NCBI GenBank assembly: GCA_965218425.1
Contig: OZ244621.1
Coordinates: forward strand, 3,072,001-3,136,000
Length of the DNA: 64,000 bases
Reading direction: 5' to 3'
DNA from: an uncultured Candidatus Binatia bacterium
Lineage (GTDB): Bacteria > Desulfobacterota > Binatia > UBA9968 > CAXXLF01
How positions within the stretch are numbered: position 1 is the stretch's first letter; every line of letters begins with the position of its first letter. This document shows positions 14,197-30,255 of the stretch, piece after piece. A model generated the notes under the pieces. It was not told the DNA's origin and searched no databases. It was given only the letters and a program-made list of their open reading frames with translations. Made by a program: the position numbers and the translations under genes.

Positions 14197-15382
14197 TGAC
14201 CTGCCCCCCTTGATTGTCCTCACCTGGAGGGTAGTCTTTGACCCAAGAGGAGGGGGACGCATGCGCAGGAGCCGATTCAGCGAACAACAGATCATCGGGA
14301 AACTGAAGGAGCACCAGGCGAGACTGGGGGTGGCGGAGCTGTGTCGCAAGCACGGCATCAGTGAGGCGACGTTTTACAAGTGGCGCTCGAAGTAGGGCGG
14401 GCTGGAGGTGTCTGAGGCGAAACGGCTTCGGAACCTGGAAGCGCAGAACACCAAGCTGAAGCGCCTTTTGGCGGAAGCGATGCTGGACGTATCGACGCTT
14501 AAGGAGATGGTGGGAAAAGACTTCTGACGCCGGGGTCCAAGAGAGAAGCCGTGGACTGGGCGATGAAGGAAGGGGGCCACTCACAGCGGCGGGCTTGCGC
14601 TCTGGTGGACATTGAGCCGCGGGTGTAGCGGTATCGGTCGATGAGACCAGATGACGGGGAGCTACGGCAGAGGCTGCGGGAGCTGGCGGCGGAACGGCGT
14701 CGGTTTGGGTATCGGCGCCTGCACCTGTTGCTTTTGCGGGAGGGCGTGGTGTTGAATCGCAAGAAGCTCTACCGGCTCTACAAGGAGGAGAAGTTGGCGG
14801 TGCGCAAGAGGGTGCTTGGGAGCCGGGCGCCGATGACGATCCCGCAGGGGGCCAATCAGCGCTGGTCGGTGGACTTCGCATCCGACGCCCTGATCGACAG
14901 CCGGCATTTCGGTGTGCTCTGCGTCATCGACGACTTCACACGGGAGTGCCTGGCCACCATCGTCAGCAACTCCATCACCGGTGAGCGGGTTGCCACAGAG
15001 CTGGACAACATTGCGCAATGGCGTGGTAATCCCTTGTTGGTGGTTTCCGACAACGGCACCGAGTTCACGTCCAATGCGATGCTACGATGGCAGCAGGGTC
15101 GCCGGGTAGAGTGGCACGACATCGCTCCAGGCAAGCCCATGCACAACGGGCTGGTCGAGAGCTTCATCGGGCCTCTGGGTGATGAATGCCTGAACGAGCA
15201 CATGTTCACAAGCTAGCGCAAAGCCCGCGAGATCATCGAAGACTGGAGGGCCGACTACAACGCCAGGAGACCACACACGAGCCTCCACGGACTGACGCCG
15301 ACGGAGTTTGCAATCCGGTCCCGATCGGAACACAGTGAAACACGGCTAACTTATACGTGAGGACAAAAAGGGGTGCAGGCCA
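14197..15382 (+). mobile_element. IS3-family insertion sequence, inactivated
   Basis: Ends TG...CA with IRs TGACCTGCCCCCCTTGATTGTCCTCAC and TGGCCTGCACCCCTTTTTGTCCTCAC; orfA/orfB organisation; no flanking target duplication. Confidence 0.92.
14261..15360 (+). pseudogene. IS3 transposase orfA/orfB pseudogene
   Basis: orfA MRRSRFSEQQIIG..LCRKHGISEATFYKW; orfB FGYRR, WSVDF, SDNGTEF, VESF (DDE). In-frame TAG at 14393, 14626 and 15214. Confidence 0.9.
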
Positions 15383-22384: not shown

Positions 22385-22414
22385 TTGACATTGTGGATTT
22401 TCTAGGTCTATATT
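22385..22414 (+). promoter_or_regulatory. Candidate sigma70 promoter of rrf2/suf with overlapping operator
   Basis: TTGACA-18-TATATT; pseudo-palindrome GTGGAT-N7-GTCTAT (22393-22411) covers most of the spacer and the start of the -10. Confidence 0.6.
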
Positions 22415-22449
22415 ACACAAGTAGCGACTTTTGCAAGGAGGTGTCACCT

Positions 22450-22944
22450 GTGCAGGATGACGGCTCATTCAAGTCCATGAAAAACGACAGAAGTTCCCTG
22501 ATGAATGTGGGGCGTCGGGTAGATTACGCGGTTCGTGCGCTTTCCTATCTGGCAGCTCAGCCCCTAAACAGGGTCATCGGTAGCCGGGAGATCACACAGA
22601 AGCAGGATATTCCGTCCCACTACCTATCCAAGATCATGAAAGACTTAGTTGCCATGGGGTTGGTCAAGTCTCATGTGGGGTGCAGGGGAGGATTTAGCCT
22701 CGCCAAACCGGCGGATGCCATTAGCCTGAAGGAAGTATATGAGGCGGTGGAAAAACCCCTGGTCCTTATGGAATGCCTGGATAAAGGGGAGCCATCCTGT
22801 CCTTACGATGCTGTCTGTACCCAGATCTCAGTGTGGGATAGGGCGCAGAGCCTCCTTACGAACTACCTTGCTGGAATTTCCCTGGGAAGCATTGCGGATG
22901 AAAGCGGACTCAAGAGACGGATAGCAAGCCCCGTCCCTTTTTGA
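22450..22944 (+). CDS. Rrf2-family (IscR/SufR-like) Fe-S regulator
   Basis: DYAVRAL, YLSKIM, GGFSLAKPA; three Cys in ECLDKGEPSCPYDAVC; AGGAGGT RBS before GTG22450. Confidence 0.92.
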   Translation: MQDDGSFKSMKNDRSSLMNVGRRVDYAVRALSYLAAQPLNRVIGSREITQKQDIPSHYLSKIMKDLVAMGLVKSHVGCRGGFSLAKPADAISLKEVYEAVEKPLVLMECLDKGEPSCPYDAVCTQISVWDRAQSLLTNYLAGISLGSIADESGLKRRIASPVPF

Positions 22945-22960
22945 TTTTTTTAGCCATAAG

Positions 22961-22979
22961 GTAGATTCAGTAGGTCCAT
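22961..22979. promoter_or_regulatory. Second copy of the candidate Rrf2 operator
   Basis: GTAGATTCAGTAGGTCCAT, 14/19 identical to 22393-22411; both fit RTRGAY-N7-RTCYAY. Confidence 0.55.
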
Positions 22980-23076
22980 TTTTGTCTAGGGGCGAAACTT
23001 TAATGGGGAATCACTGCTTATCGGGCTATTTATTAGAGTTCAATCATAAAAACACCAGGCCGCGCGGAGGAGATCA

Positions 23077-23568
23077 ATGCCATTAACCAACACTCTACCT
23101 GAAACGGTCTTTACGACAAAAGTCGATGACCTGCTCAATTGGGGCAGGGCCTCTTCACAGTGGTACATGCTGTTTGGCCTGGCGTGCTGCGCCATTGAGT
23201 TGATGCAGACGGGTGGGCCGCGAGCCGATGTGGACCGCTTTGGCTGCGTTCCAAGGGCAACGCCGCGCCAGTCGGATCTAATGATCGTGGCCGGTACGCT
23301 TACCTATAAAATGGCCAAGCGCACGAAGCTCCTTTACGACCAAATGCCCGATCCAAAGTACGTTATCTCCATGGGGAGCTGCTCGAATTGTGGCGGTCTC
23401 TTTCAGATGGCCTATTCTGTGTGTAAAGGCGTAGATAAAATCATTCCCGTGGATGTTTATGTTCCCGGGTGCCCTCCTCGGCCCGAGGCCCTAACGGAAG
23501 GGTTGTTGAGGATCCAGGACAAGATCATGAAGGAGCGATGGCTGGTAAAGAGTGCTGCAGCAATCTAG
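23077..23568 (+). CDS. nuoB: Stand-alone NADH-quinone oxidoreductase subunit B-like Fe-S protein
   Basis: [56 protein letters not shown]; no other nuo genes in the window. Confidence 0.92.
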
Positions 23569-23606
23569 GGCCGGCTAACTGAGGTGGCGGCGAAGCAGGC
23601 GAAATT

Positions 23607-25052
23607 ATGATCGATGAAGCCGTTGTAAAGCAGGACTATAAGTACGGATTCGTCACCGATGTGGCCGCGGACACTGTCCCACGTGGCCTGAACGAGGACA
23701 TAGTTCAGACCATCTCCGCCAAGAAGAACGAGCCCCAATGGTTATTGGACTGGCGACTCAAGGCCTACCGGCATTGGGTCAAAATGGAAAAGAAAGAAGG
23801 GGCACCGAAGTGGGCCAACGTTCACCATCCACCGATTAACTATCAGGACATTATTTACTATTCGGCGCCGAAGGCCGTGGCAGATCGACCGAAGAGCCTT
23901 GAAGAGGTTGACCCGGAGCTGCTCAAGACCTATGAAAAGCTGGGAATCCCTCTCATGGAGCAGGAAAAATTGGCAGGGGTGGCCGTGGATGCAGTCTTCG
24001 ACAGCGTCTCCGTTGCCACAACGTTTAAAGAAAAGCTGGGCGAGATGGGGGTTCTGTTCTGCTCATTTTCAGAGGCGGTTCAGCAGTATCCGGACCTCGT
24101 TAAAAAGTATCTCGGATCAGTGGTGCCCTACACGGACAATTTCTATGCCAGTTTGAACTCTGCGGTCTTCAGTGACGGATCGTTTTGCTATGTGCCCAAA
24201 GGCGTGAGATGTCCCATGGAGCTTTCCACCTACTTTCGAATCAACGCCGCGGAAACGGGTCAGTTCGAGCGGACTCTCATTGTGGCGGAAGAGGGTAGCT
24301 ACGTAAGCTACCTTGAAGGATGTACGGCCCCCATGCGGGATATCAATCAATTGCATGCTGCGGTGGTGGAGTTGGTTGCACTCGATAACGCGCAGATCAA
24401 ATACTCCACGGTTCAAAATTGGTATCCTGGGGACAAGGATGGCAAGGGCGGCATCTACAATTTCGTCACCAAGCGTGGCAAATGCCTTGGCAAAAACTCA
24501 AAGATATCGTGGACCCAGGTGGAAACCGGATCCGCCATCACCTGGAAGTATCCCAGTTGCATTTTGCAGGGGGACAACTCGGTGGGTGAGTTTTATTCGG
24601 TGGCCCTTACCAACAATTTTCAGCAGGCAGATACCGGAACTAAAATGATTCACATGGGGAAGAACACACGGAGCACCATCATCTCCAAGGGCATCTCTGC
24701 CGGCCATGGCCAAAACAGCTACCGTGGTCTGGTGAAAGTCCTCAAGGGGGCCACCGGTGCTCGAAACTATTCCCAGTGCGATTCGTTGCTGCTGGGGGAC
24801 CAATGTGGTGCCCATACCTTCCCGTACCTCGAGGTGATGAACAGCTCGGCCCAGGTGGAGCATGAGGCTTCGACTTCGAAGATCGGTGAGGATCAGCTCT
24901 TCTATTGCAAGCAACGGGGGATCTCAGCCGAGGACGCGGTTACCATGATCGTAAGTGGCTTCTGTAAGCAGGTCTTTCGTGAGCTGCCCATGGAGTTTGC
25001 AGTGGAAGCCCAAAAGCTGCTGGGAGTCAGTCTCGAAGGCAGCGTTGGATGA
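23607..25052 (+). CDS. sufB: Fe-S cluster assembly protein SufB
   Basis: [43 protein letters not shown]. Confidence 0.98.
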
Positions 25053-25079
25053 GCCGGGAGAGGCGCAAAGGGGAATATC

Positions 25080-25847
25080 GTGCTGACGATTAAAGATTTA
25101 AAGGCCAATGCAGAGGGCAATGAAATCCTGAAGGGAATTAATCTCACAGTCAACGCCGGTGAAGTTCATGCCGTCATGGGTCCCAATGGTTCGGGTAAAA
25201 GTACTCTGGCCCACGTTCTTGCGGGACGGGAAGGTTATGAAGTGACCGGGGGCGAGGTGAGGTACGAAGGAAGGGACCTGCTGGCCATGTCACCTGAGGA
25301 ACGGGCTCGCCAGGGAGTCTTCCTGGCGTTTCAATATCCAGTGGAAATTCCTGGAGTGAGCACCACCTACTTTATGAAGGCTGCCCTCAACGCGGTGAGA
25401 AAAGGACGTGGCCTTGAAGAGCTGGATGCGATGGATTTCTTGGCCCTGGCTAAGGAGAAGATGAAACTGGTGGAGATGGACCGGGATCTTCTGAATCGGC
25501 CAATCAACGAGGGGTTTTCCGGCGGTGAGAAAAAACGCAACGAGATTTTTCAGATGGCGGTGTTGGAGCCGAAGCTGGCCATCTTGGACGAGACGGATTC
25601 CGGACTGGACATCGATGCCCTAAGAATCGTAGCGGGGGGTGTCAACTCCCTGCGTAACAAGGACACCGCTATGATTGTGGTGACTCATTACCAGCGATTG
25701 TTGGACTACATTGTGCCGGACTATGTCCACGTTCTCTTCGATGGCCGCATCGTCAAATCCGGAGACCGGAGTCTTGCCCTGGAGTTGGAAGAAAGAGGAT
25801 ATGGCTGGGTTGAGGGGCAGGTCCAGGGCGCTCAGGCCTCAACCTAA
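25080..25847 (+). CDS. sufC: Fe-S cluster assembly ATPase SufC
   Basis: GPNGSGKST, FQYPVEIPG, FSGGEKKRNE, LDETDSGLD. Confidence 0.98.
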   Translation: MLTIKDLKANAEGNEILKGINLTVNAGEVHAVMGPNGSGKSTLAHVLAGREGYEVTGGEVRYEGRDLLAMSPEERARQGVFLAFQYPVEIPGVSTTYFMKAALNAVRKGRGLEELDAMDFLALAKEKMKLVEMDRDLLNRPINEGFSGGEKKRNEIFQMAVLEPKLAILDETDSGLDIDALRIVAGGVNSLRNKDTAMIVVTHYQRLLDYIVPDYVHVLFDGRIVKSGDRSLALELEERGYGWVEGQVQGAQAST

Positions 25848-25865
25848 AAAAGGACAATTCCCGCT

Positions 25866-27206
25866 GTGATGAATACCACCGAAGCAAGGGACTTCTATCG
25901 AGACCACTTCGTTCAATTCGAAAAGGACCTCCATAGCAACCAGGCATGGACTCACTTGGTTCGCCGGGAGGCCATCTCTCGGTTCTCCGAGCTTGGGTTT
26001 CCAAGCGCCGGTCATGAGGAATGGAAGTATACCAACGTTGCACCCATCGCGAAGATCCCTTTTGAGCCGGCTCGGGATGGGCTCAACGGCGTCACATCCG
26101 AGACCCTCGCCCGACTGGGTGTTGGGAATCTGGTGGATCATAGGATTGTTTTCATTAACGGCCGCTACTCTCGCAATCTCTCGTCTTTCGAAATCCCCGA
26201 AAATGTTCGGGTCGGTAGCCTGTCTGCGGTTCTGGGTGATCATCCCGCAAGTGTGGAGCCTTACCTGGCGCGCTACGCCAGCTACCAGGACCAAGCCTTT
26301 GTGGCCTTGAACACGGCGTGGATGAATGATGGTTGCTTTGTTCATGTCCCGAAGGGCAGTATCCTTGGGGAGCCCATCCATCTGATTTTCTTTTCAACCA
26401 CCCAAGGCGAAGCCACGGTTTCTTACCCTCGCAACCTCATTGTAATCGGTGACGAGGGCCAGGCGAGCATCGTGGAAACCTATCTGGGCGTGAAAGACGA
26501 AGTCTACTTCACCAACGCCGTGACCGAGATCGTGCTGGGTAAAGATGCCGTGGTGGATCATTACAAACTTCAATGTGAAAGCCGCAGCGCCTTCCACGTG
26601 GCCACCTTGCAGGTTCATCAGCACCGGAACAGCAACTTTTCCTCACATTCCGTTTCCCTGGGGGGGGCCCTTGCACGTAATGACTTTAATTCAGTGTTGG
26701 ACGGAGAGGGCAGCGAGTGTTCCCTCAACGGCCTCTACACGGTGGACGGGAAGCGGCATGTGGACAACCACACACGGGTGGACCATGTGAAACCCCATTG
26801 CAACAGCCGCGAGCTCTATAAAGGTATCTTGGGTGGGAGAGGGAAGGGAGTCTTCAATGGCAAGATCTACGTCCATGGGGCTGCTCCAGGGACTGATGCC
26901 AAACAGACCAATAAAAACCTCCTGCTGTCCGAGGAGGCTACCATTAACACCAAACCCCAATTGGAAATTTATAACGACAACGTAAAGTGCACGCACGGTT
27001 CCACGGTGGGCCAGCTGGATCCAGATGCCGTCTTTTACCTCCGCTCTCGAGGGATGGGTCTCCAGGATGCCCGTAGGCTCATGACTTTTGCGTTCGCGAG
27101 CGAAATTATCGGAACGGTTAAGCCGGCGAAGCTCCGTTCCTGGCTCGAAGAGACGTTTCACTCAAGGTCTTACCAGTCGGGTGATTCGGAATCCTTGGAG
27201 AAGTAA
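25866..27206 (+). CDS. sufD: Fe-S cluster assembly protein SufD
   Basis: EEWKYT, KPQLEIYNDNVKCTHGSTVG, FYLRSRG. Confidence 0.96.
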   Translation: MMNTTEARDFYRDHFVQFEKDLHSNQAWTHLVRREAISRFSELGFPSAGHEEWKYTNVAPIAKIPFEPARDGLNGVTSETLARLGVGNLVDHRIVFINGRYSRNLSSFEIPENVRVGSLSAVLGDHPASVEPYLARYASYQDQAFVALNTAWMNDGCFVHVPKGSILGEPIHLIFFSTTQGEATVSYPRNLIVIGDEGQASIVETYLGVKDEVYFTNAVTEIVLGKDAVVDHYKLQCESRSAFHVATLQVHQHRNSNFSSHSVSLGGALARNDFNSVLDGEGSECSLNGLYTVDGKRHVDNHTRVDHVKPHCNSRELYKGILGGRGKGVFNGKIYVHGAAPGTDAKQTNKNLLLSEEATINTKPQLEIYNDNVKCTHGSTVGQLDPDAVFYLRSRGMGLQDARRLMTFAFASEIIGTVKPAKLRSWLEETFHSRSYQSGDSESLEK

Positions 27207-27211
27207 ATCAG

Positions 27212-28483
27212 ATGACCGTAAGCAGACAGAGCGTCGCGGCCAGTGATTGGAAAAACCCGGAGAGACCCTTTGACGTAGGGGAAATCCGGAAGGACTTTCC
27301 GATCCTGCAGCGAAAAGTCCATGGTAAATCGCTGGTCTACCTTGACAATGCCGCTACAAGTCAGAAGCCGCAGGCGGTTATTGATGCCATTGACAGATAC
27401 TACAGCAACGAAAATTCGAATATTCATCGTGGCGTCCATCAATTAAGCGAGGAGGCCACAAAGAACTATGAAGACGCCCGGAAAAAAATCCGGCGTTTCA
27501 TCAATGCTCCAAAGGATCGGGAAATTGTCTTTGTGCGCAGCACCACGGAGGCCATAAACCTTGTGGCTCAGAGTTACGGCAGGAAGTTTATCCGTACGGG
27601 TGAGGAAATTGTCATTTCGGCCATGGAGCATCACTCGAATATCGTGCCGTGGCAGATGCTGTGCGAGGCGACCGGCGCTAAGCTCCGTGTGATCCCCATT
27701 AGCCAGGAAGGGGAAATACTGTTTGATGAGTATCGGGGCCTGTTAAATGATCGGACCAGATTGGTCTCCGTGGCCCATGTTTCGAACGCGCTTGGCACCA
27801 TCAATCCGGTCAAGGAGATGGTTGAGGAGGCCCATCACCGAAAAATACCCGTGTTCGTCGATGGAGCCCAGGCGGCGCCTCACATGAAAATCGATGTTCA
27901 GGACCTGGGTTGTGATTTCTACGCGTTCTCAGGGCACAAGTTATTTGGTCCCACGGGAATCGGTGTGCTTTACGGCAAGGCGAGCCTGCTGGAGGCCATG
28001 CCGCCCTATCAAGGGGGCGGTGACATGATCAGTCTGGTGACCTTCGAGAAAACCCATTACAATGTTTTGCCATATAGATTCGAAGCGGGCACCCCGAACA
28101 TTGCCGGGGGAATCGGATTGGGCGCGGCCATTGACTATCTCGACGGGATTGGGTTCGCGGCAGTGGAAGCCCATGAAAGCCAGATCCTGTCCTATGCCAC
28201 GGAAGCCCTTTCGTCCATTCCAGGGCTGCGGTTCATCGGAACGCCGAAACGGAGGGCAGGCGTGATCTCCTTCCTGTTGGAAGGTATTCACGCCCATGAT
28301 ATCGGTACAATCTTGGATCAGGAGGGAGTTGCTATCCGAACGGGACATCACTGCGCCATGCCTGTCATGCAGCGCTTTGGCGTGCCCGCAACGGCAAGGG
28401 CATCCTTCGCCTTTTACAATACAAAAGACGAAGTAGGCGCTTTGGTCCGGGCCATGGGTAAAGTCCAAGAGGTATTTGGTTGA
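27212..28483 (+). CDS. sufS: Cysteine desulfurase SufS
   Basis: YLDNAATSQKP, EHHSN, SGHK, RTGHHCA (group II). Confidence 0.97.
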   Translation: MTVSRQSVAASDWKNPERPFDVGEIRKDFPILQRKVHGKSLVYLDNAATSQKPQAVIDAIDRYYSNENSNIHRGVHQLSEEATKNYEDARKKIRRFINAPKDREIVFVRSTTEAINLVAQSYGRKFIRTGEEIVISAMEHHSNIVPWQMLCEATGAKLRVIPISQEGEILFDEYRGLLNDRTRLVSVAHVSNALGTINPVKEMVEEAHHRKIPVFVDGAQAAPHMKIDVQDLGCDFYAFSGHKLFGPTGIGVLYGKASLLEAMPPYQGGGDMISLVTFEKTHYNVLPYRFEAGTPNIAGGIGLGAAIDYLDGIGFAAVEAHESQILSYATEALSSIPGLRFIGTPKRRAGVISFLLEGIHAHDIGTILDQEGVAIRTGHHCAMPVMQRFGVPATARASFAFYNTKDEVGALVRAMGKVQEVFG

Positions 28484-28935
28484 TGTCAGACTTGAGCGAA
28501 CTCTATCAGGAGGTCATACTCGATCATAATAAAAGCCCACGGAACTTTCGCGTCCTGAAGGATGCGAATCGAACAGCCGAGGGCTACAACCCCCTGTGTG
28601 GTGACCAAATTACCGTCTATCTCAAGTTGGAAGACGGTGTCATTAAGGAAATCAGTTTCCAGGGCGCTGGCTGTGCCATTTCCAAGGCTTCGGCTTCCAT
28701 GATGACCGCAAGCTTAAAGGGGAAAACGGAGGCAGAGGCGAAGGCTCTTTTCGACCGGGTTCATAGGATGCTTTTGGGGGAACTGGACGCGAAGAGCGAC
28801 GAACACAACCTTGGGAAATTGTCGCTCCTTTCTGGCGTGTGCCATTTTCCCGCTCGCGTGAAGTGCGCAAGCCTTTCTTGGCATACGCTTCAGGCGGCAT
28901 TGAAAGGGGAGGAAGAGTTAGCCACCACCGAGTGA
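28483..28935 (+). CDS. sufU: SUF system NifU-family protein SufU
   Basis: LYQEVILDH, NPLCGD, GCAIS, RVKCA. Confidence 0.95.
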   Translation: MSDLSELYQEVILDHNKSPRNFRVLKDANRTAEGYNPLCGDQITVYLKLEDGVIKEISFQGAGCAISKASASMMTASLKGKTEAEAKALFDRVHRMLLGELDAKSDEHNLGKLSLLSGVCHFPARVKCASLSWHTLQAALKGEEELATTE

Positions 28936-28985
28936 ATCGGGTGAAAATCATTCAATTCCAAATGAAATCCAGGGGAGACGAACAT

Positions 28986-29543
28986 ATGGAAAGCGGTGAT
29001 GCGATAACACTGAACCGCGAGTGCGAAGCCGTCATGATTCCCAGTGGCGAAAAGCTGTCGCTATCAGCAGGCAGCCGGGTATGGATTACTCAGTCTCTGG
29101 GTGGCGGTTTTACCGTGACCACGGATCGCGGACATATGGTGCGTATTGCTGCCAGGGACGCCGGTGTTCTGGGCATGGAAGTCCCGACCCGCGCAGGGGG
29201 TCGGTCTTCAGTGGCGACGGAGGGCCCCGTGGAAATTGAAAATAAAGTATGGGGTCAGCTTCGAATGTGCTTTGACCCGGAAATCCCGGTAAATATCGTC
29301 GATCTGGGGCTGGTTTATCATTGTGAGGTAACCCCCATAGCCAAGGGAGAGAGCAGGGTGGAGGTGAAATTTACCTTAACGGCTCAAGGGTGTGGTATGG
29401 GCGAGGTCTTGAAGGAAGATATAAGAAATAAAATCACGAGTGTGCCGGGGATCAGTGAAGTTGATGTGGAGCTGGTCTGGGACCCACCTTGGGACCAGAG
29501 CATGATATCCGGCGCGGCAAAGCAAAGGCTCGGAATGCTTTAG
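28986..29543 (+). CDS. sufT: Putative Fe-S assembly protein SufT (N-extended DUF59)
   Basis: ITQSLGG, FDPEIPVNIVDLGL, TLTAQGCGMG, VWDPPW. Confidence 0.88.
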   Translation: MESGDAITLNRECEAVMIPSGEKLSLSAGSRVWITQSLGGGFTVTTDRGHMVRIAARDAGVLGMEVPTRAGGRSSVATEGPVEIENKVWGQLRMCFDPEIPVNIVDLGLVYHCEVTPIAKGESRVEVKFTLTAQGCGMGEVLKEDIRNKITSVPGISEVDVELVWDPPWDQSMISGAAKQRLGML

Positions 29544-29572
29544 TCGCATTTTTCATATAAGGAATCCATTAG

Positions 29573-29893
29573 ATGGAGAGCATCAATTCAACCGTTATCG
29601 AGGCCCAGGTGGTGGAGGCTCTGCAGACCTGTTTTGATCCCGAAATTCCAGTTGACATCTATGAGCTTGGATTGATTTATGGAATCGAAGTGGACCCTTC
29701 GGGCAGTGTCACCATTACCATGACCCTCACTTCACCCGCCTGTCCCGCAGCCCAGTCCATTCCTGAGGAGGTTGAGAGCAAGGTGCAGGCCATCCCAGGG
29801 GTTACCGATGTCCACGTGGTGATCGTTTGGGAGCCCACCTGGGATCCAAGCAAAATGTCCGAAGCTGCTAAGCTACAGCTCGGTATGCTATAA
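29573..29893 (+). CDS. DUF59 / SUF system Fe-S assembly protein
   Basis: FDPEIPVDIYELGLIY, MTLTSPACP, VWEPTW. Confidence 0.9.
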   Translation: MESINSTVIEAQVVEALQTCFDPEIPVDIYELGLIYGIEVDPSGSVTITMTLTSPACPAAQSIPEEVESKVQAIPGVTDVHVVIVWEPTWDPSKMSEAAKLQLGML

Positions 29894-29946
29894 GATCAGT
29901 GTTTCAGTTCAGCATGACTCGTTAATAAAGGAGGAGTAAGAAGTTT

Positions 29947-30255
29947 ATGGCTGGATTTGTGAAGGTTGCGAAGGCAGATGACGTCTCTCCTGGTAAGGGT
30001 AAGATGGTGGATGTTAACGGAAAAAAGATTGCTCTCTTTAACGTTGAAGGGGCCTTTTACGCCATCGACGATACGTGTACCCATCGAGGAGGCCCCCTTT
30101 CCCAGGGGTTGATGGAAGAAAAACAGGTGCGGTGCCCGTGGCACGGCGCACTTTTTGATGTGACCAACGGTGAAGCCGTAGGCGCTCCTGCACCGTCGGG
30201 AGTGGCGCGGTACAATGTTCGAGTGGAAGGTTCCGATATCGAAGTCGAGGTCTGA
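29947..30255 (+). CDS. Rieske [2Fe-2S] ferredoxin
   Basis: CTH..CPWHG Rieske motifs; AGGAGG RBS. Confidence 0.95.
   Translation: MAGFVKVAKADDVSPGKGKMVDVNGKKIALFNVEGAFYAIDDTCTHRGGPLSQGLMEEKQVRCPWHGALFDVTNGEAVGAPAPSGVARYNVRVEGSDIEVEV

What the first reader, a model, noticed from the sequence alone, without database searches (positions are those of the whole stretch)
22385..30255. Orphan, Cys-enriched NuoB paralogue built into an Rrf2-controlled SUF operon
Seen: a complete nuoB-like gene (strong RBS; four N2 ligands in LACC, SMGSC and PGCPP) lies between rrf2 and sufB, 38 nt before sufB, with no nuoA/C/D in the window. It has three extra Cys (FGCVP, SCSNC, SVCKG). Known: nuoB normally sits in nuoABCD, and no sufA carrier gene is present in this operon. 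Inference: the protein may be repurposed as a [4Fe-4S] carrier or acceptor for SUF, or be a stress-induced spare N2 subunit for repairing complex I. I do not know of a characterised example.
Basis: partly seen in the sequence, partly recalled or inferred. Interest (0 to 1): 0.78.

Follow-up and report, generated by a model that had tools for sequence, protein, structure and literature searches.

The report
Complex I nuoB recruited into SUF regulon
The nuoB gene in this iron-sulfur assembly (suf) operon is the copy missing from one of the genome's two respiratory complex I operons and has its own predicted regulator-binding site, so supply of this cluster-bearing subunit is likely tied to cluster building, a move that two unrelated bacterial groups have also made.

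Summary
The genome (a Ca. Binatia relative) has two nuo operons, both lacking nuoB, and exactly two stand-alone nuoB genes, so nothing is spare. Orthologues of the suf copy, 91-95% identical, sit between nuoA and nuoC of the NuoEFG-less operon in 15 of 16 sister-family loci. Here that slot is empty. The three 'extra' Cys also occur in operon-resident copies, and an A-type carrier is encoded elsewhere.

What is new: a palindromic operator-like site from the rrf2 promoter recurs just upstream of nuoB. It is one of the four best sites genome-wide; the other three precede rrf2, mrp and a grxD-containing gene run. It precedes all 8 SUF-linked copies scored plus one clade sister, and none of 35 nuo operon starts. 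The same relocation arose independently in Planctomycetia (SUF, 16 of 26 loci) and a Bdellovibrionota group (ISC genes, 5 of 15 loci); an AU test rejects one origin.

Best reading: an ordinary N2 subunit whose supply is likely set by the Fe-S regulon. Co-transcription is untested. The scan noted similar cases on other DNA. I found no paper describing it.

The parts
22385..22414 (+). sigma-70-type promoter (TTGACA-18-TATATT) upstream of rrf2
   Evidence: 11 of 12 consensus matches; 1 found, 1.1 expected in shuffles; conserved in relatives
22393..22411 (.). operator-like palindrome 1 (consensus ATAGAC-N7-GTCTAT) overlapping the rrf2 promoter; predicted Rrf2 site
22450..22944 (+). Rrf2-family regulator with three C-terminal Cys; start probably the GTG at 22450 behind AAGGAGGT (alternatives 22477, 22501)
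   Evidence: TIGR00738 over cut-off, IscR/RirA/NsrR models under cut-off; PF02082; sequence
22961..22979 (.). operator-like palindrome 2 in the rrf2-nuoB spacer; travels with relocated nuoB in relatives
   Evidence: third-best site genome-wide with the symmetric matrix; 9 of 52 nuoB upstream regions score 16 or more
23066..23072 (+). ribosome-binding site GGAGGAG of nuoB
23077..23568 (+). nuoB (PRK14818 type), N2 subunit of the NuoEFG-less complex whose operon (C1:1716062-1706051) lacks nuoB
23607..25052 (+). sufB
   Evidence: PRK11814 and TIGR01980 over cut-off
25080..25847 (+). sufC
   Evidence: TIGR01978 over cut-off
25866..27206 (+). sufD
   Evidence: TIGR01981 over cut-off
27212..28483 (+). 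sufS
   Evidence: TIGR01979 over cut-off
28483..28935 (+). sufU
   Evidence: TIGR01994 over cut-off
28986..29543 (+). long SufT
   Evidence: TIGR03406 over cut-off
29573..29893 (+). short SufT / DUF59-type SUF-associated protein
   Evidence: TIGR02945 over cut-off
29947..30255 (+). Rieske-type ferredoxin
   Evidence: dioxygenase-ferredoxin models, under their cut-offs

Best explanation
This gene encodes the NuoB missing from the genome's NuoEFG-less complex I operon, which likely still serves as that enzyme's N2 subunit, and its place behind a predicted Rrf2 operator in the suf operon would tie its synthesis to Fe-S cluster status. Shown: the slot in that operon is empty here and filled by a 91-95% identical orthologue in the sister family; the protein is under strong purifying selection; the operator-like site is present. 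Inferred route: nuoB was duplicated as an operator-nuoB module into Fe-S loci (two-copy genomes still exist), then the operon copy was lost in this family. Inferred mechanism: cluster-loaded Rrf2 represses. When clusters are scarce or damaged, SUF and apo-NuoB are made together, the N2 cluster is loaded, and holo-NuoB docks on NuoD/NuoC/NuoI made from the distant operon. N2 loading would then gate assembly or repair of the complex. I put the identity at about 0.9 and the regulatory coupling at about 0.7.
For: Stoichiometry: 2 nuoB, 2 nuoD, 2 nuoC, 2 nuoA and 2 nuoI-type genes; both operons run nuoA to nuoC with 13 and 6 nt between. Mirror pattern at 30 nuoC loci: nuoB absent in 5 of 5 own-family and 9 of 9 f3 loci, present in 15 of 16 f2 loci, the 16th being cut by a contig end. 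nuoA-B-C in 22 of 22 loci from other Binatia orders. The same suf locus without nuoB in G017, G006 and G020. Two-copy genomes G025, G039 and G005. SUF-linked copies form one clade with one solo copy (UFBoot 98) nested among operon copies. dN/dS 0.011 against 0.013, and no group-separating change in residues 20-145. Operator: the top four genome-wide sites precede a grxD-containing gene run, rrf2, nuoB and mrp. It scores 16-28 before 9 of 52 nuoB starts (8 SUF-linked, 1 clade sister), at most 6.0 before the other 43, at most 5.8 before 35 nuoA starts and at most 7.0 before 23 nuoB2 starts. Convergence: Planctomycetia regulator-nuoB-sufC in 16 of 26 loci, with nuoB absent beside nuoC in 5 of 5 such genomes checked. 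Bdellovibrionota nuoB after iscA or at the end of an isc operon in 5 of 15 loci. One origin rejected, p-AU 1e-8.
Against: No transcript spans rrf2-nuoB or nuoB-sufB, and binding of Rrf2 to the site is not shown. Most lineages keep nuoB in the operon: 22 of 22 other Binatia loci, 11 of 13 Myxococcota loci, and none of 29 Acidobacteriota loci lay near my Fe-S probes, apart from one Rieske gene. So the coupling is optional. In all 18 f3 loci the detached nuoB lies next to a Rieske ferredoxin (grxD follows in the two examined widely), far from sufB and without the operator. The other nuoB of this genome is detached without any Fe-S link. In G005 the SUF-linked copy has a 19-residue in-frame deletion while an operon copy persists. 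The strict operator pattern was found before only 8 of 17 rrf2 orthologues. dS is saturated (about 2-2.5), so dN/dS is rough.
Confidence: 0.75

Rival explanations
1. Neutral relocation. nuoB leaves its operon easily and landed by chance behind a usable promoter; it is the ordinary subunit and the Fe-S control is incidental.
For: Detached nuoB genes without Fe-S neighbours are common: this genome's second nuoB, solo Binatia copies, 2 Myxococcota and 4 Acidobacteriota loci. nuo genes are not co-localised in 14% of genomes (PMC4453560, passages). A paper title states that nuo gene order is not essential in E. coli (reference list of PMC12361115; paper not read).
Against: Fe-S biogenesis loci with flanks cover 0.65-1% of this genome, yet 3 of 14 other detached lineages sit there (P about 1e-4 to 3e-4; 2 of 13, P 0.003-0.007, hand-tallied lineages, rough). 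The gene keeps a second operator although rrf2 and its promoter lie just upstream, and keeps it at four different positions around suf genes.
Confidence: 0.13
2. Moonlighting or repurposed SUF component: free NuoB acts as a [4Fe-4S] carrier, acceptor or store for SufBCD, using extra Cys.
For: First structural position in the operon here and in Planctomycetia. No A-type carrier in this operon. Two-copy genomes exist.
Against: No spare copy in this genome. C105 and C116 are invariant in all 35 in-order rows whatever their location, and C57 is Cys in 8 of 21 operon copies and Ala in one SUF copy. Planctomycete SUF-linked L109 lacks all three extra Cys. An A-type carrier, GrxD and Mrp are encoded elsewhere. 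In G039 an A-type carrier lies right next to nuoB. Partners differ between lineages: SUF, ISC, Rieske-GrxD.
Confidence: 0.05
3. The NuoEFG-less complex itself serves Fe-S assembly, for example by reverse electron flow to a ferredoxin that supplies reductant to SUF or ISC, and nuoB is the regulated switch that turns the complex on.
For: All three convergent cases involve the NuoB type whose resident orthologues sit before op1-type nuoC-nuoD. Ferredoxins travel with relocated nuoB: Rieske in f3 and G005, a dicluster-like ferredoxin in G025, G031 and G039. In family f9 the whole operon follows mrp-mrp-fdx-reductase-iscU-nuoB2-rrf2. The redox partner of 11-subunit complexes is an open question (PMC11238625, passages).
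Against: The operon itself has no operator. The dicluster-like ferredoxin was found only in this order (9 of 61 genomes) and lies elsewhere in this genome. There is no direct evidence on the direction of electron flow.
Confidence: 0.07

Closest known systems
NuoB / Nqo6 / PSST (NDUFS7), N2 subunit of respiratory complex I; NCBIfam PRK14818
   Same: Full-length match over cut-off, four ligand Cys with the tandem pair, best solved relatives are NDUFS7/NuoB chains (E 1e-60 to 4e-47).
   Different: The gene lies about 1.38 Mb from its operon, inside suf, behind a predicted Rrf2 operator.
11-subunit (NuoEFG-less) complex I-like enzyme, nuoABCDHIJKLMN, e.g. Desulfitobacterium hafniense (PMC11238625, passages)
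   Same: The operon at C1:1716062-1706051 has nuoA, C, D, H, I, J, K, L, M, N and no E, F, G; with this nuoB it has all 11.
   Different: Ten genes in the operon and nuoB apart, under predicted Fe-S control.
sufBCDS-sufU-sufT operon headed by an Rrf2-family (IscR/SufR-like) regulator
   Same: All core genes pass their NCBIfam cut-offs; a 19-bp palindrome overlaps the regulator's promoter, as described for IscR-type sites in alphaproteobacteria (PMC1698941, passages).
   Different: A client apoprotein gene of a respiratory complex is inserted as first structural gene with its own operator copy. The regulator is under the cut-offs of IscR, RirA and NsrR.
A-type carriers SufA / IscA / ErpA
   Same: Position in a suf operon only.
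   Different: No match to A-type models; a real A-type gene exists at C1:2067201.

Membership tests
NuoB (complex I 20-kDa subunit) | Curated family score | tested here: met
   PRK14818 303.6/255, TIGR01957 224.7/142.7, PRK06411 238.1/116; PF01058 98.7/27
NuoB (complex I 20-kDa subunit) | Four N2 Cys including the tandem CC pair | tested here: met
   C37, C38, C102, C132; tandem pair described in PMC4758237 passages
NuoB (complex I 20-kDa subunit) | Cognate nuoC/nuoD/nuoH/nuoI partners encoded in the genome | tested here: met
   Operon at C1:1716062-1706051 lacking only nuoB; orthologues resident in it in relatives
NuoB (complex I 20-kDa subunit) | Physically part of the assembled complex, carrying N2 | not testable with these tools
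   Needs purification and EPR
[quoted passage not shown] | nuoABCDHIJKLMN present, nuoEFG absent from the set | tested here: met
   (one nuoEFG set lies in the second operon; sharing of that module between the two complexes is not excluded)
A-type Fe-S carrier (SufA/IscA/ErpA) | Match to TIGR00049-type models | tested here: not met
   No such hit for nuoB; true A-type genes do hit
Member of an Rrf2-controlled Fe-S regulon | Conserved operator upstream, shared with the regulator's own promoter and other Fe-S genes | tested here: met
   (prediction from sequence)
Member of an Rrf2-controlled Fe-S regulon | Co-transcription with sufB | tested here: inconclusive
   38-nt gap and no terminator called there; RNA contigs do not bridge genes
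Member of an Rrf2-controlled Fe-S regulon | Regulator binds the site in a cluster-dependent way | not testable with these tools
   Needs EMSA or ChIP

The most novel reading that the evidence does not exclude
Bacteria have repeatedly taken one gene, the N2 subunit, out of complex I operons and put it under Fe-S regulon control, because N2 loading is the limiting or most damage-prone step. NuoB then works as an Fe-S-sensing valve and exchangeable part that sets how much complex I is assembled or repaired. Binatia (SUF, Rrf2), Planctomycetia (SUF, SufR-like) and Bdellovibrionota (ISC, MerR-like) would be independent natural experiments on this checkpoint.
Probability: 0.4. Interest if true: 0.75.

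Novelty: new variant of a known kind. Interest (0 to 1): 0.52.

Why it matters
The protein is ordinary; the wiring is not. Repeated recruitment of nuoB to SUF or ISC loci in three phyla, with a dedicated operator in Binatia, points to N2 insertion as a controlled step in building or repairing complex I. It gives a simple test: move nuoB between the nuo and Fe-S promoters and measure assembly under iron or oxidative stress. The arrangement in Planctomycetia may allow this in cultured strains (that some are cultured and tractable is recalled, not checked). It also explains apparently nuoB-less operons in genome surveys, and yields a predicted regulon and operator for an uncharacterised Rrf2 protein.

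Tried and rejected
Complex prediction SufB + NuoB without alignments: no verdict, score 0.00, no evidence either way. Metatranscriptome contigs from three runs of one study: exact-match pieces lie on rrf2, nuoB and sufB at low depth, none of the listed pieces bridges two genes, most laid pieces come from other organisms, and contigs cannot show transcripts. The careful protein tree did not finish; I used the quick tree and an AU test under LG+G4 without the five nuoB2 rows. Extra Cys as a SUF signature: rejected. nuoB filling in for a missing SufA: rejected. Pairing with the NuoEFG-bearing operon: rejected, because resident orthologues lie in the other operon type and relatives of the second nuoB lie in op2-type operons. 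Operator before the nuo operons, the second nuoB or the stand-alone nuoI: not found. Rieske gene behind the Bdellovibrionota nuoC-D-I cluster: by inspection part of a cytochrome bc cluster, not SUF-related. A possible weak hairpin plus T-run at the end of rrf2 appeared in folds of two genomes but was not called by the terminator scan; left open. Literature searches returned nothing on nuoB inside suf or isc operons; the library lacks most subscription journals, and I read no supplements.
Full report
Observation. The window is C1:3072001-3136000 of a single-contig, 97% complete genome whose closest relatives are labelled Ca. Binatia. Divergent from a peptide deformylase gene run a sigma-70-type promoter (22385-22414), an Rrf2-family regulator, nuoB (23077-23568), sufB, sufC, sufD, sufS, sufU, two sufT genes and a Rieske-type ferredoxin. 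nuoB has a strong RBS, ends 38 nt before sufB and matches its neighbours in GC and GC3. It passes the NuoB models and has the four ligand-position Cys plus C57, C105 and C116. The description is accurate.

It is not a spare. The genome holds two NuoB-family genes, this one and a 44% identical one at C1:5796. It holds two nuo operons: op1 (nuoA-C-D-H-I-J-K-L-M-N, no EFG) and op2 (nuoA-C-D-E-F-G-H-J-K-L-M-N). In both, nuoC follows nuoA within 13 nt, so neither has nuoB; op2 also lacks nuoI, which stands alone near C1:943000. Two complexes need two NuoB.

Which complex. Of 41 genomes of the order, 39 have a close orthologue, at 91-98% identity where full length. At 30 op1 nuoC loci, nuoB sits between nuoA and nuoC in 15 of 16 family-f2 loci (one cut by a contig end) and is absent in 5 of 5 own-family and 9 of 9 f3 loci. 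In 22 of 22 loci returned from other Binatia orders it is resident (the tool returned loci for the best 30 matches only). The same suf locus between aspS-def and lysS exists without nuoB in G017, G006 and G020, so nuoB is the inserted part. G025, G039 and G005 carry both an operon copy and a suf-linked copy. In a codon tree of 48 rows, the 7 SUF-linked copies plus one solo copy form a clade (UFBoot 98) nested among operon copies. Duplication into Fe-S loci followed by loss of the operon copy is the inferred route.

The extra Cys are not special. C105 and C116 do not vary among 7 SUF-linked, 7 Rieske-linked and 21 operon copies; C57 is Cys in 6 of 7 SUF and 8 of 21 operon copies. C105 also occurs in resident copies of Bacteroidota, Ignavibacteria and Acidimicrobiia, and the planctomycete SUF-linked copy L109 has none of the three. 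Only residues 4, 150 and 152, near the ends, tend to differ between groups. dN/dS is 0.011 (18 of 21 pairs scorable) against 0.013 (172 of 210), with saturated dS. An A-type carrier, GrxD and Mrp are encoded elsewhere.

A dedicated operator. The rrf2 promoter overlaps a conserved 19-bp palindrome, consensus ATAGAC-N7-GTCTAT; a strict pattern found it before 8 of 17 distinct rrf2 orthologues. A symmetric matrix built from 7 such promoter sites alone ranks four sites highest in the genome: before a grxD-containing gene run (24.3), the rrf2 promoter (22.5, a training site), the rrf2-nuoB spacer at 22961-22979 (21.1) and before mrp (21.0); the next scores 17.2. Upstream of 52 orthologous nuoB starts, 9 score 16-28: all 8 SUF-linked copies and the solo clade sister. 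The other 43 score at most 6.0, 35 op1 nuoA starts at most 5.8 and 23 second-type nuoB starts at most 7.0. The operator-nuoB unit occurs at four positions: after rrf2, after sufT, before the Rieske-rrf2 block, and before an A-type carrier and sufB. That Rrf2 binds the site, and represses when cluster-loaded, is inferred from family knowledge; 19-bp palindromes at IscR-type promoters are described in PMC1698941 (passages).

Convergence. In Planctomycetia, 17 of the 26 closest orthologue loci have a SufR-like HTH gene upstream (under the model's cut-off) and 16 have sufC directly downstream; 7 lie next to nuoA and 2 next to neither. In 5 SUF-linked genomes checked, the op1-type cluster has no nuoB beside nuoC; 4 run nuoA to nuoC and one showed no nuoA either. 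In Bdellovibrionota, 5 of 15 orthologue loci place nuoB after an A-type carrier or at the end of a merR-iscS-iscU-iscA-hscB-hscA run (hscB and hscA named by inspection), and their op1-type cluster starts at nuoC; the other 10 are nuoB-C-D. The three groups lie in separate, supported parts of a 75-row protein tree, each with resident relatives (quick tree), and an AU test rejects holding the 22 Fe-S-linked rows together (p 1e-8, nuoB2 rows left out). In Binatia family f9 the second nuoB lies in mrp-mrp-fdx-reductase-iscU-nuoB2-rrf2, directly before op1. A rough chance estimate from hand-tallied detached lineages gives P of 1e-4 to 7e-3.

Against. The link is optional: 11 of 13 Myxococcota loci are resident and the 2 detached ones are not near my Fe-S probes; none of 29 Acidobacteriota loci is, apart from one Rieske gene. 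f3 copies lie with a Rieske ferredoxin, far from sufB and without the operator. The suf copy in G005 has a 19-residue in-frame deletion. RNA contigs gave no bridge between genes.

Mechanism. Shown: identity, empty operon slot, purifying selection, operator-like site, independent origins. Inferred: when Fe-S demand rises or clusters are damaged, Rrf2 releases, SUF and apo-NuoB are made together, N2 is loaded, and holo-NuoB completes the complex whose other ten subunits come from op1. NuoB supply would gate assembly or repair. Rivals are neutral relocation (0.13), the 11-subunit complex as a redox partner of Fe-S assembly (0.07) and a moonlighting carrier (0.05).

Literature and earlier notes. 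nuo genes are co-localised in 86% of genomes with complex I (PMC4453560, passages). The electron donor of 11-subunit complexes is open (PMC11238625, passages). A two-hybrid contact between a NIF-system ferredoxin and NuoB is reported in H. pylori (PMC8144621, passages). Passages of PMC13066941 and PMC12361115 held nothing on the arrangement. Eight searches found no description of nuoB in suf or isc operons; subscription journals and supplements were not seen. Earlier notes of this scan report the planctomycete case (seen, after I had found it) and similar cases in Binatota, Armatimonadota, Nitrospira and one more genome; the last three I did not check.

Verdict. A real, conserved feature. The protein is a known subunit; the recurrent, operator-equipped placement in Fe-S regulons is a new variant of a known kind. 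Interest 0.52.

Noticed in passing
G000:C1:5796-6305 and C1:942985-943572: The NuoEFG-bearing operon lacks both nuoB and nuoI, which stand alone; its nuoB (PRK14817 over cut-off) is stand-alone in all 18 relatives' loci examined, next to a small conserved ORF or a ~765-aa gene that looks like a sulfite/nitrite reductase by inspection.
   Followed up: partly
L339:3753-8907 (G135; also G121, G142, G163, L083): In Binatia family f9 a cluster mrp-DUF971-like-mrp-fdx-reductase-iscU-nuoB2-rrf2 abuts the 11-subunit nuo operon.
   Followed up: partly
L061:8011-8592; G000:C1:958918-959457: An order-specific ~185-aa protein with split ferredoxin-type Cys motifs (weak Fer4_21 hit, under cut-off) follows relocated nuoB in G025, G031 and G039; found in 9 of 61 class genomes, all of this order. 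Candidate redox partner, untested.
   Followed up: partly
G000:C1:2065261-2068461: An iscS-iscA-iscS-rrf2 cluster; in several f2 genomes sufB sits inside this cluster, apart from rrf2-sufCDSUT, while here sufB is with sufC.
   Followed up: partly
G000:C1:575836-575854: The best operator site in the genome precedes a gene run of a long sigma-70-type factor (Pfam on the G005 counterpart) and grxD, suggesting a sigma factor gene in the Fe-S regulon.
   Followed up: no
L190:5846-6304 (G005): SUF-linked nuoB with a 19-residue in-frame deletion behind a near-perfect promoter and operator, in a genome that keeps the operon copy: probably a decaying duplicate.
   Followed up: partly
L351, L352 (Bdellovibrionota): nuoC-nuoD-nuoI, without membrane subunits directly after, is followed by genes that look like a cytochrome bc complex (Rieske, cytochrome b), by inspection.
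   Followed up: no
L312:10635-11156, L315:4474-4968: A MerR-family regulator, not IscR, heads the isc operon that ends in nuoB.
   Followed up: no
window 14641-15216: Transposase-like ORF (IS3-family look, by inspection) upstream of the region.
   Followed up: no
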